Source: the human T2T-CHM13v2.0 reference genome, Homo sapiens. From it: a DNA stretch of 64,000 bases. The position numbers were made by a program, and so were the translations under genes. Shown in pieces: positions 31,536-34,500 of the stretch. The DNA is taken from assembly GCF_009914755.1 (NCBI RefSeq), contig NC_060931.1, one strand, 5' to 3'. The notes below the pieces were generated by a model that was not told the DNA's origin, searched no databases, and saw only the letters and a list, made by a program, of their open reading frames with translations. Positions within the stretch are counted from its first letter, which is position 1. Every line of letters starts with the position of its first letter.

Positions 31536-34500
31536 GAGACTTAGGAAGACTGGTTGATGCATTTGGGTTGTAGCTAGGCTTTTTCTTTTCTTTCTCTTTT
31601 AAAACATATCTAGGACAAGGAAAAACAAGCCTCGGATCTGATTTTTCACTCCTTGTTCTTGTGCTTGGTTCTTTCTGTGTTTGTGTATTTTAAAGGTGAG
31701 AAGATGAGAGCAACAAAACCAGCTGGATCCATCCATCACCATGGGTGGTTTTAATTTCTCGTTCTTCTCGTTAATTTTTTTAAACAACCATTCTTCACAA
31801 TGAACAAACTGTATATCGGAAACCTCCACGAGAACGCCGTCCCCTTGGACCTAGAAAGTATCTTCAAGGACGCCAAGATCCCAGTGTTGGGATCCTTCCT
31901 GGTGAAGACTGGCTATGCGTTCATGGACTGCCCAGAGGAGAGCTGGGCCCTCAAGGCCATCAAGGTGCTTTCAGGAATTGACGCTGTATAATCCAGAACG
32001 CACCATTACAGTTAAAGGCAATGTTGAGGCATGTGCCAAAGCTGAGGAAGAGATCATGAAGCAAATAAGGGAGTCATATGAAAATGATATTGCTTCTATG
32101 GATCTTCAAGCACATTTAATTCCTGGATTAAATCTGAACGCCTTGGGTCTGTTCCCACCCACTTCAGGGATGCCACCTCCCACCTCAGGGCAGCCTTCAG
32201 CCATGACTCCTACCTACCCGCAGTTTGAGCAATCAGAAACGGAGACTGTTCATCTGTTTATCCAGGCTCTATCAGTCGGTGTCATCATCGGCAAGCAGGG
32301 CCAAGCACATCAAGCAGCTTTCTCGCTTTGCCGGAGCTTCAATTAACATTGCTCCAGCAGAAGCACCAGATGCTAAAGTGAGGATGGTAATGATCACTGG
32401 ACCACCAGAGGCTCAGTTCAAGGCTCAGGGAAGAATTTATGGAAAAACTAAAGAAGAAAATTTTGTTAGTCCTAAAGAAGAGGTTAAACTTGAAGCTTAT
32501 ATCACAGTGTCATCCTTTGTTGCTGGTGGAGTTATTGGAAAAGGAGGCAAAACGGTGAATAAACTTCAGAATTTGTCAAGTGCAGAAGTTGCTGTCCCTC
32601 ATGACCAGACACCTGATGAGAATGACCAAGTGGTTGTCAAAATAACTGGTCACTTCTATGCTTGCCAGGTTGCTCAGAGAAAAATTCAGGCAATTCTGAC
32701 TGAGGTAAAACAGCACAACAGCAGAAGGCTCTGCAAAGTGGACCACCTCAGTCAAGATGGAAGTAAAGACTCAGGAAACAGCCCACCACAGAGGCAGATG
32801 GCAAACCAAAGACAGATTGCTTAACCAACAGACAGGCGCTGACCCCCTATCCAGAATCACATGCACAAGTTTTTACCTAGCCAGTTGTTTCTGAGGACCA
32901 GGCAACTTTTGAACTCCTGTCTCTGTGAGAATGTATACTTTATGCTCTCTGAAATGTATGACACCCAGCTTTAAAACAAAACAAAAAGAGGGTGGGGGAG
33001 GGAGGGAAAGAGAAGAGCTCTGCACTTCCCTTTGTTGTAGTCTCACAGCATAACAAATATTCTAATTCTTAATATTCCTCCATAATTCCAGAAATTGGCT
33101 TACTGATGCTTTCACTAAATTCAAGTAGATTGCTCCTAAATTCAATTGTTAAAATTGGATCAGAATAATTATCACAAGAACTTAAATGTTAAGTCATTAG
33201 CATAGAAAAACTGTTCTCAGTTTTATTTTTACCTAACACTGACATGAGTAACCTAAGGGAAGTGCTGAATGGTGTTGGCAGGTGTATTAAACATGCATTT
33301 TTATTCAACTACCTCAGGTATTCAGTAATACAATGAAAAGCAAAATTGTCCCTATTGGGCGAAATTCATCCCCGATATTTCATGTAGGTTGTTTTCTATT
33401 TTCCCTAAGTGTCAGCTGGTCTGAGAAATAAAGGGACAGAGTACAAAAGAGAAATTTTAAAGCTAGATGCCCGGGGGAGACATCACATGTCAGCAGGTTC
33501 TGTGATGCCCCGAGCTGTAAAACCAACAATTTTTTATTAGTGATTTTCAAAAGGGGAGGGAGTGTATGAATAGGGTGTGGGTCACAGAGATCGCATGCTT
33601 CACAAGGTAATAAGATATCACAAGGTAAATGGAGGCAGGGCGAGATCACAGGACCACAGGACTGGGGCGAAATTAAAATTGCTAATGAAGTTTCAGGCAG
33701 GCATTGTCATTGATAACATCTTATCAGGAAACAGGGTTTGAGAGCAGACAACCGGTCCGACCAAAATTTATTAGGCAGGAGTTGCCTCGTCCTAATAAGC
33801 CTGGGAATGCTACGGGAGACTGGGGCTTATTTCATCCCTACAGCTACGACCATAAAAGACAGCCGCCTCCAAAGCGGCCATTTTAGAGGCCTACCCTCAG
33901 GGACACATTTTCTTTCTCAGGGATGTTCCTTGCTGAGAAAAAGAATTCAGTGGTATTTCTCCCATTTGCTTTGAAAGAAGAGAAATATGGCTCTGTTCCA
34001 CCCAGCTCACCAGCAGTCAGAGTTTAAGGTTATCTCTCTTGTTCCCTGAACATTGCTGTTATCCTGTTCTTTTTTCAAGGTGCCCAGATTTCATATTGTT
34101 CAAACACACATGCTGTACAAACAATTTGTGCAGTTAACACAATCATCACAGGGTCCTGAGGTGACATACATCCTCCTCAGCTTATGAAGATGATGAGATT
34201 AAGAGATTAAAGACATAGGAAATCACAAGGGTATTGATTGGGGAAGTGATAAGTGTCCATGAAATCTTCAAAATTTATGTTCAGAGATTGCAGTAAAGAC
34301 AGGCATAAGAAATTATAAAAGTATTAATTTGGGGAACTAATAAATGTCCATGAAATCTTCACAATTTATGTTCTTCTGCCATGGTTTCAGCCGGTCCCTC
34401 CATCTGGGGTCCCTGACTTCCGGCAACAGTTCCTTAATTTTTGAAAATTTTATATACTTTATAACGATAGAAGTCCAATCATTTTTTAAAAAATAAATTT

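What the first reader, a model, noticed from the sequence alone, without database searches (positions are those of the whole stretch)
31960..31995. IGF2BP3 retrocopy joins the end of exon 1 to mid-KH2, skipping about 260 codons
Seen: the junction CTTTCAG|GAATTGACG falls exactly 175 nt after the ATG, and the rest of RRM1, RRM2, KH1 and most of KH2 are absent, although both UTRs and the TSDs are complete. Recalled: 175 nt is the coding length of IGF2BP exon 1, and the parent reads TTGCAG immediately before GAATTG, a cryptic acceptor. Inference: the template was a multi-exon-skipped mRNA (out of frame, 63-aa product, or KH3-KH4-only from a downstream ATG), the kind of linear by-product linked to circRNA formation. 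Alternative: deletion or RT template switch at a CAGG microhomology.
Basis: partly seen in the sequence, partly recalled or inferred. Interest (0 to 1): 0.78.

Follow-up and report, generated by a model that had tools for sequence, protein, structure and literature searches.

The report
IGF2BP3 retrocopy preserving a mis-spliced mRNA
This is a dead, reverse-transcribed copy of the human IGF2BP3 gene that was most likely copied from a rare mis-spliced messenger RNA lacking seven exons, a known kind of "transcript fossil" and not a working gene.

Summary
Window 31536-36000 is one L1-type processed pseudogene of IGF2BP3, with 17-nt target-site duplications, a poly(A) remnant and a 5' end at the parent's first exon. 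Exon-1 sequence ends at 31974, exactly 175 nt after the ATG, and joins GAATTG at 31975.

I rebuilt the parent gene from the same assembly: 15 exons and a 579-codon ORF. The left break is exactly the exon-1 donor (CAG|gt). The right break follows the second AG of ctgcag|ATTGCAG|GAATTG, so it lies 7 nt inside exon 9. The missing piece is exons 2-8 plus 7 nt, 773 nt in all.

If deletions of the spliced mRNA fell at random, 0.05% would look like this, or 0.9% among those with at least 4 nt of microhomology. A mis-spliced template is therefore the best reading (about 0.85). A later deletion or a reverse-transcriptase jump at CAGG is not excluded.

The circRNA link has no support: the one circIGF2BP3 I read about covers exons 4-13. 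A second retrocopy on chromosome 6 keeps exons 2-8, but it is an independent paralogous insertion.

RefSeq's IGF2BP3P2 span starts at 31969 and misses the 433-nt exon-1 part. This is a known kind of object, of modest interest. Primate orthologues and RNA-seq could not be checked.

The parts
31519..31535 (+). 5' target-site duplication (GAAAATTATTCAAAAGC)
   Evidence: family D6: 16 of 17 identical to 36001-36017.
31536..31536 (+). One extra G between the TSD and the first parent-matching base. It may be a copied cap nucleotide (inference from general knowledge of L1 retrotransposition).
   Evidence: alignment: c7 has one extra base before AGACTTAG. One search shows the parent reads ...ctaAGACTTAGG.
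31537..31799 (+). 5' UTR part of parent exon 1
   Evidence: 92.8-93% identity to C7:23606787-23606347. This part lies outside the RefSeq IGF2BP3P2 span, which starts at 31969.
31800..31974 (+). Coding part of exon 1 (175 nt, codons 1-58 plus 1 nt; N-terminal five-sixths of RRM1)
   Evidence: Pfam RRM_1 profile positions 1-58 of 70, 18.2 bits, below the 20.7 cut-off.
31972..31975 (+). Junction. CAGG is the 4-nt stretch shared by both parent sites. Read as splicing, the break is 31974|31975.
   Evidence: three-way alignment; the 20-mer across it occurs once in the genome at 0 mismatches.
31975..32103 (+). Parent exon 9 minus its first 7 nt (129 of 136 nt; C-terminal third of KH2)
   Evidence: Pfam KH_1 profile 43-66 of 66. 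PDB 6gqe_A residues 130-168.
32104..32766 (+). Exons 10-15 coding part (KH3, KH4) up to the parental stop TAA at 32764-32766. It is broken by a +1 insertion at 32303 and a -1 deletion after 32715.
   Evidence: Pfam KH_1 at 2.2e-13 for the ORF 32384-32824.
32767..33353 (+). 3' UTR, first part
   Evidence: 93.8% identity to the parent's last exon.
33354..34428 (-). Later insertion of an interspersed repeat of about 1.07 kb inside the 3' UTR. It is flanked by GTCCCT / GTTCCT. It is not part of the retrocopy template.
   Evidence: the parent match is interrupted here, at parent coordinates 23448192/23448200; many genomic hits; full-length matches in 5 of 7 sampled loci at 88-92% identity.
34429..35986 (+). 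3' UTR, second part, to the parental poly(A) site
   Evidence: 92.1% identity to C7:23448200-23446650. The parent has AATAAA 23 nt before the end.
35987..36000 (+). Decayed poly(A) tail
   Evidence: an A-run with two G's, absent from the parent genome (one search shows agcttg after the match).
36001..36017 (+). 3' target-site duplication
   Evidence: family D6.

Best explanation
Window 31536-36000 is a single L1-mediated processed pseudogene of IGF2BP3. Its RNA template was an aberrantly spliced IGF2BP3 transcript. In that transcript the exon-1 donor was joined to an AG 7 nt inside exon 9, removing exons 2-8 and the first 7 nt of exon 9 (773 nt).

The transcript was capped, polyadenylated at the distal site and out of frame: it has a 63-codon ORF and would be a predicted NMD target. 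It was reverse-transcribed end to end and inserted at an A-rich site roughly 35-40 million years ago. That date is inferred from a branch length of 0.0445 and from substitution rates I recalled, not measured.

Since insertion the copy has decayed. It has two further frameshifts and carries a repeat insertion of about 1.07 kb. Nothing suggests it has a function.

Shown: the anatomy, the gene model and the position of both breaks at splice-type sites. Inferred: that the join was made by the spliceosome and not by a deletion or an RT jump.
For: (1) One insertion event. There is a single TSD pair, one poly(A) remnant, and no A-run or repeat at the junction.

(2) Gene model. Searches give 15 exons with AG acceptors and GT donors (GC for introns 13 and 14) and a 579-codon ORF. 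My exons 4-13 sum to 1242 nt, the length printed for circIGF2BP3 'exons 4 to 13' in PMC8377850. That is an independent check of the boundaries.

(3) Left break. It coincides with the end of exon 1 (CAG|gtgggc).

(4) Right break. It directly follows CAG in ttcattctgcag|ATTGCAG|GAATTG, 7 nt inside exon 9. The chr6 retrocopy shows that the normal mRNA reads ...ATATCTCC|ATTGCAGG.

(5) Chance estimate. Of 6,305,709 distinct deletions of 30 nt or more in the spliced mRNA:
- 42,001 (0.67%) can be placed at an exon end;
- 3,030 (0.048%) also have AG before the 3' break;
- 133 (0.002%) also lie 0-10 nt into an exon.
Among the 32,933 deletions with at least 4 nt of microhomology the counts are 851, 303 (0.92%) and 14.

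(6) Site quality by crude measures. The donor matches 7 of 9 consensus positions. The cryptic acceptor has 14 of 20 pyrimidines upstream in the pre-mRNA context.
Against: The junction sits in a 4-nt microhomology, CAGG. That is what a microhomology-mediated deletion or an RT template switch would leave. Of the 23 CAGG sites in the mRNA, 2 lie at exon ends. If only CAGG-to-CAGG events are allowed, the coincidence is therefore roughly 1 in 10, not 1 in 1000.

The acceptor is not the annotated one. In pre-mRNA the canonical AG lies 7 nt upstream, with a better tract (18 of 20 pyrimidines), and should normally win.

The chance model assumes uniformly placed breaks. No RNA evidence for such a transcript and no orthologous copy could be examined. 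An NMD-sensitive, rare transcript is an unlikely template a priori.
Confidence: 0.85

Rival explanations
1. A full-length retrocopy was inserted and later lost 773 bp through a genomic deletion between the two CAGG sites (replication slippage or microhomology-mediated end joining).
For: There is a 4-nt microhomology at the junction. The copy shows many other small indels relative to the parent: one search lists 25 indel entries besides the 773-nt gap (two are extra bases at the sequence ends). So it has been subject to indel decay. A full-length retrocopy of the same gene exists on chr6, so normal mRNA was retrotransposed in this lineage.
Against:: only 0.048% of all possible deletions, or 0.92% of those with at least 4 nt of microhomology, would mimic an exon-end donor plus an AG acceptor. 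The other indels in the copy are 1-11 nt, so none approaches 773 nt.
Confidence: 0.06
2. L1 reverse transcriptase jumped during target-primed reverse transcription. The jump went from the CAGG in exon 9 to the CAGG at the exon 1/2 junction of the same or another normal IGF2BP3 mRNA. The deletion was therefore created at insertion.
For: The microhomology CAGG is present. Template switching at chance sequence similarity is described for retrocopy formation, though for LTR elements, in passages of PMC5470649. That L1 RT also switches templates is my recollection.
Against: The same coincidence argument applies. Only 2 of the 23 CAGG sites are at exon ends. Nothing else in the copy, such as an inversion or a chimeric partner, points to template switching.
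Confidence: 0.07
3. This is a sub-variant of the best explanation. The join was made on already spliced RNA, by re-splicing or recursive splicing. Removal of intron 1 regenerates a 5' splice site at the exon 1/2 junction. With intron 8 gone, the first AG after the exon-8 end is the +7 AG.
For::
- The exon 1/2 junction reads CAG|GTAAAA, 7 of 9 consensus positions. It is the best of the 14 exon junctions and equal to the natural exon-1 donor.
- In spliced mRNA the 27 nt before the +7 AG contain no other AG. They include a CACTAAA stretch about 22 nt upstream and the pyrimidine-rich ATATCTCCATTG.
- This would explain why the canonical AG was not used.
Mechanisms of this kind are described in the abstracts of PMC3439910, PMC6224609 and PMC8234774.
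Against: The pyrimidine tract is weaker in the mRNA context (11 of 20) than in the pre-mRNA context (14 of 20). According to those papers, the exon junction complex represses such events in normal cells. The pre-mRNA also offers a second TTCAT motif 9 nt before the canonical AG, which could act as a close branch point and favour the +7 AG without any re-splicing (inference). The final sequence is identical under both routes.
Confidence: 0.3

Closest known systems
[quoted passage not shown] 2006). I saw this paper only as a reference-list entry. The paper itself is not held, so its content is recalled.
   Same: An intron-less, TSD-flanked, polyadenylated copy whose internal gap begins and ends at splice-type sites of the parent gene.
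   Different: Seven exons are skipped at once. The acceptor is an unannotated AG 7 nt inside the target exon. The template was out of frame.
Re-splicing of mature mRNA (TSG101 and FHIT; Kameyama et al. 2012, PMC3439910, abstract read) and EJC-repressed recursive splicing at regenerated 5' splice sites (Blazquez et al. 2018, PMC6224609, abstract and Methods section 30 read)
   Same: Distant weak sites inside exons are joined and most of the mRNA body is removed. The exon 1/2 junction of IGF2BP3 regenerates a GT-containing 5' splice-site-like sequence.
   Different: Here there is only a DNA fossil and no lariat or RNA evidence. The MaxEnt threshold that Blazquez et al. use (5.52) could not be computed. 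The held supplements name IGF2BP3 only in a list of ENCODE accessions, not as an RS-exon gene.
The full-length IGF2BP3 retrocopy on G000:C6:168.08 Mb (locus L010)
   Same: Same parent gene. It is intron-less and matches parent mRNA positions 10-3729 at 95.3% identity.
   Different: It keeps exons 2-8 and the canonical exon 8|9 join. It lacks the last 425 nt of the 3' UTR and any poly(A). It is younger, with a branch of 0.0295 against 0.0445.
circIGF2BP3 (hsa_circ_0079587)
   Same: A non-canonical splicing product of the same parent gene.
   Different: It consists of exons 4-13, 1242 nt (PMC8377850 passages). Its boundaries do not match the exons 2-8 missing here.

Membership tests
L1-mediated processed pseudogene (retrocopy) | No introns: consecutive parent exons are contiguous | tested here: met
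   exon 1 and exons 9-15 of the parent abut without intron sequence in the window.
L1-mediated processed pseudogene (retrocopy) | Flanking target-site duplications | tested here: met
   17 nt, 16 of 17 identical, at 31519-31535 and 36001-36017.
L1-mediated processed pseudogene (retrocopy) | Poly(A) tail at the parental polyadenylation site | tested here: met
   an A-rich run at 35987-36000; the parent match ends 23 nt after AATAAA and the parent genome continues with non-A sequence.
L1-mediated processed pseudogene (retrocopy) | Insertion at an L1 endonuclease-type site (TTTT/A on the bottom strand) | tested here: inconclusive
   The TSD begins GAAAA, which is compatible. The consensus itself is recalled and no statistic was computed.
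Retrocopy of a splice variant ('transcript fossil') | The 5' edge of the gap coincides with an annotated donor | tested here: met
   exon 1 ends CAG|gt at the break.
Retrocopy of a splice variant ('transcript fossil') | The 3' edge of the gap coincides with an annotated acceptor | tested here: not met
   the break is 7 nt inside exon 9, at a second AG. It is an acceptor-like site but not the canonical one.
Retrocopy of a splice variant ('transcript fossil') | The same junction is seen in RNA of the parent gene | not testable with these tools
   No RNA-seq or EST resource is available. Literature searches returned no listed title or opened passage describing such an isoform.
Retrocopy of a splice variant ('transcript fossil') | The junction is present in all orthologous copies, meaning present at birth | not testable with these tools
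   the held assembly 'has no relatives here'.
IGF2BP (IMP/VICKZ) coding sequence | RRM and KH domain matches, and identity to IGF2BP3 | tested here: met
   RRM_1 (below cut-off, fragment), KH_1 fragment, and KH_1 at 2.2e-13; best PDB hits are IGF2BP1 and IGF2BP3 KH1-2 chains; 93-98% DNA identity to the chr7 parent exons.
Functional retrogene | Intact open reading frame | tested here: not met
   the first-ATG ORF is 63 aa. There are two further frameshifts, at 32303 and after 32715.

The most novel reading that the evidence does not exclude
The copy is a germline fossil, roughly 35-40 million years old, of re-splicing of an already spliced mRNA. After normal splicing, the 5' splice site regenerated at the exon 1/2 junction (CAG|GTAAAA) was joined to the first AG downstream of the exon-8 end. 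That AG lies 7 nt into exon 9 only because intron 8 and its canonical AG had already been removed. If so, EJC-repressed 'over-splicing', so far described mainly in cancer cells or after EJC depletion, also occurred in normal primate germline or early-embryo cells. Retrocopies could then be mined systematically for such events.
Probability: 0.3. Interest if true: 0.5.

Novelty: new member of a known kind. Interest (0 to 1): 0.3.

Why it matters
It gives a clean, fully mapped example of a processed pseudogene recording a multi-exon-skipped, out-of-frame transcript of an oncofetal RNA-binding protein gene.

It corrects the annotated extent of IGF2BP3P2. The 433 nt derived from exon 1, upstream of 31969, belong to the pseudogene.

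It predicts a specific low-abundance parent transcript that can be looked for: the exon-1 donor joined to exon 9 from its 8th base.

The 7-nt offset is a small handle on a larger question: whether such junctions are made on pre-mRNA or on already spliced mRNA.

No function is implied for the pseudogene itself.

Tried and rejected
(a) circRNA by-product idea. The only circIGF2BP3 I found described is exons 4-13. No circle of exons 2-8 was found in what I read. circBase itself could not be queried.

(b) The chr6 copy as a refutation. It retains exons 2-8 but is a separate insertion at another locus. Site patterns give a star-like tree (c7-only 117, c6-only 83, shared against parent 37, all three different 3, of 2918 sites). 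The chr6 copy also lacks the last 425 nt of 3' UTR that the chr7 copy has. It is therefore neither orthologue nor source.

(c) Other copies with the same junction, such as segmental duplicates. There are none. All 9 matches are accounted for, and the junction 20-mer is unique at 0 mismatches. The seven 2-mismatch hits are the parent exon 9 start and six unrelated places.

(d) Literature on this pseudogene or on an exon 1-exon 9 isoform. Searches listed nothing relevant by title or abstract, out of 299 and 22 papers, of which 20 and 10 were listed. This is not proof of absence.

(e) IGF2BP3 as a listed RS-exon gene in Blazquez et al. The three held supplementary files name it only as an ENCODE knock-down accession. 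Other supplements may exist that I could not see.

Shemesh et al. 2006 is not held.

(g) MaxEntScan scores could not be computed because no model files are available. Only crude consensus and pyrimidine counts were used.
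Full report
**What is in the window.** Read on the + strand, the region 31519-36017 has the full anatomy of an L1-type processed pseudogene.
- A 17-nt direct repeat lies at 31519-31535 and 36001-36017, 16 of 17 identical.
- One extra G follows at 31536.
- Sequence matching the parent gene's first exon starts at 31537.
- An A-rich tail lies at 35987-36000.
- The ATG is at 31800 and the string CTTTCAG|GAATTGACG breaks between 31974 and 31975, which is 175 nt after the A of the ATG.
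- The ORF from that ATG is 63 codons.

**The parent gene model.** The window's own assembly could be searched. Window 31540-32400 found nine places: itself, five exon-sized matches on G000:C7 at 23.45-23.61 Mb on the minus strand, two matches about 770 bp apart on C6, and a 75% match on C17. The C17 match is presumably a paralogue.

Further searches used the next part of the window and the chr6 middle segment. Together with BLAST of both retrocopies against the fetched loci, they gave all exons. After trimming to splice dinucleotides the parent has 15 exons of 440, 61, 49, 52, 64, 282, 135, 123, 136, 126, 117, 75, 132, 114 and 2248 nt.

All acceptors are AG. All donors are GT except GC in introns 13 and 14. 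The ORF is 579 codons and the coding part of exon 1 is 175 nt.

There is an independent check. Exons 4-13 of this model sum to 1242 nt, exactly the length given for circIGF2BP3 'exons 4 to 13' in PMC8377850 (passages).

**Where the two breaks fall.** The left break is the last base of exon 1. The parent continues CAG|gtgggc.

The right break is not at an annotated boundary. The parent genome reads ...ttcattctgcag|ATTGCAG|GAATTG. The chr6 retrocopy carries the normal mature join and runs ...ATATCTCC|ATTGCAGGAA. So exon 9 normally starts at ATTGCAG, and the window's copy starts 7 nt later, directly after a second CAG.

What is missing is exons 2-8 (766 nt) plus 7 nt. That is 773 nt, codons 59 to 316.

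The retained flanks were checked against domain libraries.
- The exon-1 piece matches the first 58 of 70 Pfam RRM_1 positions.
- The post-junction piece matches the last 24 of 66 KH_1 positions.
- The post-junction piece also aligns to residues 130-168 of the 168-residue IGF2BP3 KH1-2 chain 6gqe_A.

The three-way alignment shows that the gap can slide over four bases, CAGG, which are common to both sites.

**Splicing or deletion?** Both a spliced join and a microhomology-mediated event would leave CAGG, because CAG|G is the exon-side consensus of both splice sites. I therefore asked how often a random deletion of the spliced mRNA would imitate splicing.

| Set of deletions (30 nt or more) | Total | Can sit at an exon end | Also AG before the 3' break | Also 0-10 nt into an exon |
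|---|---|---|---|---|
| All distinct products | 6,305,709 | 42,001 (0.67%) | 3,030 (0.048%) | 133 (0.002%) |
| At least 4 nt microhomology | 32,933 | 851 | 303 (0.92%) | 14 |

Under the narrowest rival model, only jumps between CAGG sites are allowed. Then 2 of the 23 CAGG sites are at exon ends, roughly a one-in-ten coincidence.

These figures assume uniformly placed breaks. Even with prior odds against a rare transcript, they favour a spliced template. I put it at about 0.85 and leave about 0.13 for the two rivals together.

The other indels in the copy are 1-11 nt, so none approaches 773 nt.

**Why the +7 AG?** This is the one feature that simple exon skipping does not predict. In pre-mRNA the canonical AG sits 7 nt upstream, behind a stronger tract: 18 of 20 pyrimidines against 14 of 20 for the +7 site. 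There are two possible routes, and the final sequence cannot separate them.

1. Splicing on pre-mRNA with a minor choice of AG. A second TTCAT motif only 9 nt before the canonical AG might help, if it acted as a close branch point. This is inference.

2. Splicing on RNA from which introns 1 and 8 had already been removed.
- The exon 1/2 join regenerates CAG|GTAAAA. That is 7 of 9 consensus positions, the best of the 14 exon joins and as good as the natural exon-1 donor by this crude count.
- In spliced mRNA the +7 AG is the first AG after an AG-free stretch of 27 nt. That stretch holds a branch-point-like CACTAAA and the run ATATCTCCATTG.
- Such re-splicing or recursive splicing is documented for other genes, and the exon junction complex represses it (abstracts of PMC3439910, PMC6224609 and PMC8234774).
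- Against this route, the tract is weaker in the mRNA context (11 of 20), and an exon junction complex would sit just where the branch point would be. The position of the complex is my general knowledge.

I give route 2 about 0.3.

**What the template would have encoded.** A parent-allele model of the transcript has the same 63-codon ORF. Its stop lies 676 nt before the last exon junction, so by the usual rule the transcript is an NMD target. The first ATG in the KH frame would give 236 residues. This is a model only. Nothing shows that any product was ever made.

**circRNA link.** This is not supported. The one IGF2BP3 circRNA I read about covers exons 4-13, not exons 2-8.

**Other copies and age.** The chr6 copy (L010) matches parent mRNA positions 10-3729 at 95.3% identity. 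It keeps exons 2-8 and has no poly(A) at its end.

Across 2918 sites aligned in all three sequences:
- 117 changes are private to the chr7 copy;
- 83 are private to the chr6 copy;
- 37 separate the parent from both copies;
- 3 differ in all three.

K2P distances are 0.055 (parent to chr7 copy), 0.040 (parent to chr6 copy) and 0.074 (between copies). My arithmetic from these gives branches of about 0.0445, 0.0295 and 0.0105. This is a star-like pattern, as expected for two independent insertions, with the window's copy the older.

With recalled primate neutral rates, the window's copy dates to roughly 35-40 Myr. It should therefore be shared by apes and Old World monkeys. This is an estimate, not a measurement.

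No other copy in the assembly carries the junction.

**State of the copy.** Besides the 773-nt gap there is a +1 insertion at 32303 and a -1 deletion after 32715. The parental stop codon is still recognisable at 32764-32766. An interspersed repeat of about 1.07 kb sits in the 3' UTR at 33354-34428. Nothing suggests function.

**Annotation.** The RefSeq span quoted by the hub for IGF2BP3P2 is 31969-35985. It begins at the junction and omits the exon-1-derived 433 nt (31536-31968). These belong to the same insertion, since a single TSD pair encloses both parts.

**Limits.**
- No primate orthologues and no RNA-seq could be examined.
- No splice-site scoring models were available.
- Shemesh et al. 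2006 was seen only in reference lists.
- Supplements of Blazquez et al. beyond the three held files were not visible.

Noticed in passing
window 33354-34428: An interspersed repeat of about 1.07 kb was inserted into the retrocopy's 3' UTR after retroposition. It is flanked by GTCCCT / GTTCCT and contains an internal 45-nt tandem pair (34238-34282 / 34329-34373). Full-length matches of 88-92% identity were found in 5 of 7 sampled genomic loci. On the minus strand it begins TGTTGCC. From memory it resembles a MER11-type solo LTR. That family name was not tested.
   Followed up: partly
L010 (G000:C6:168073500-168083000), minus strand: A second, younger IGF2BP3 retrocopy that retains exons 2-8. 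It matches parent mRNA positions 10-3729 at 95.3% and ends without poly(A). Its 3' end was probably lost later.
   Followed up: partly
L029 (G000:C12:42243523-42246738): A third intron-less IGF2BP-like stretch. It is 66-72% identical to parent mRNA positions 351-1953 and is contiguous across exon joins. It is either an old retrocopy of this gene or a copy of a paralogue.
   Followed up: no
Parent gene, G000:C7:23449958 and 23449171 regions (L033): Introns 13 and 14 of the parent IGF2BP3 both have GC-AG boundaries (ACG|gcaagt and CAG|gcaagt).
   Followed up: no
window 31536-36000 against G000:C7:23446650-23606787: A pathology paper (PMC4944550, passage) places the IMP3 gene at chromosome 7p11.2. 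Four other papers listed also contain the term '7p11' but were not opened. In this assembly the intron-bearing gene lies at 23.45-23.61 Mb of chr7, while this pseudogene lies at 56.82 Mb. The old cytogenetic assignment may reflect the pseudogene. The band names are recalled.
   Followed up: partly
window 31915-32346: A 143-codon ORF runs across the junction into the KH2 frame. It starts at an ATG that the parent does not have (the parent reads ACG there, a CpG transition in the copy). It is an accident of decay, not a feature of the template.
   Followed up: yes
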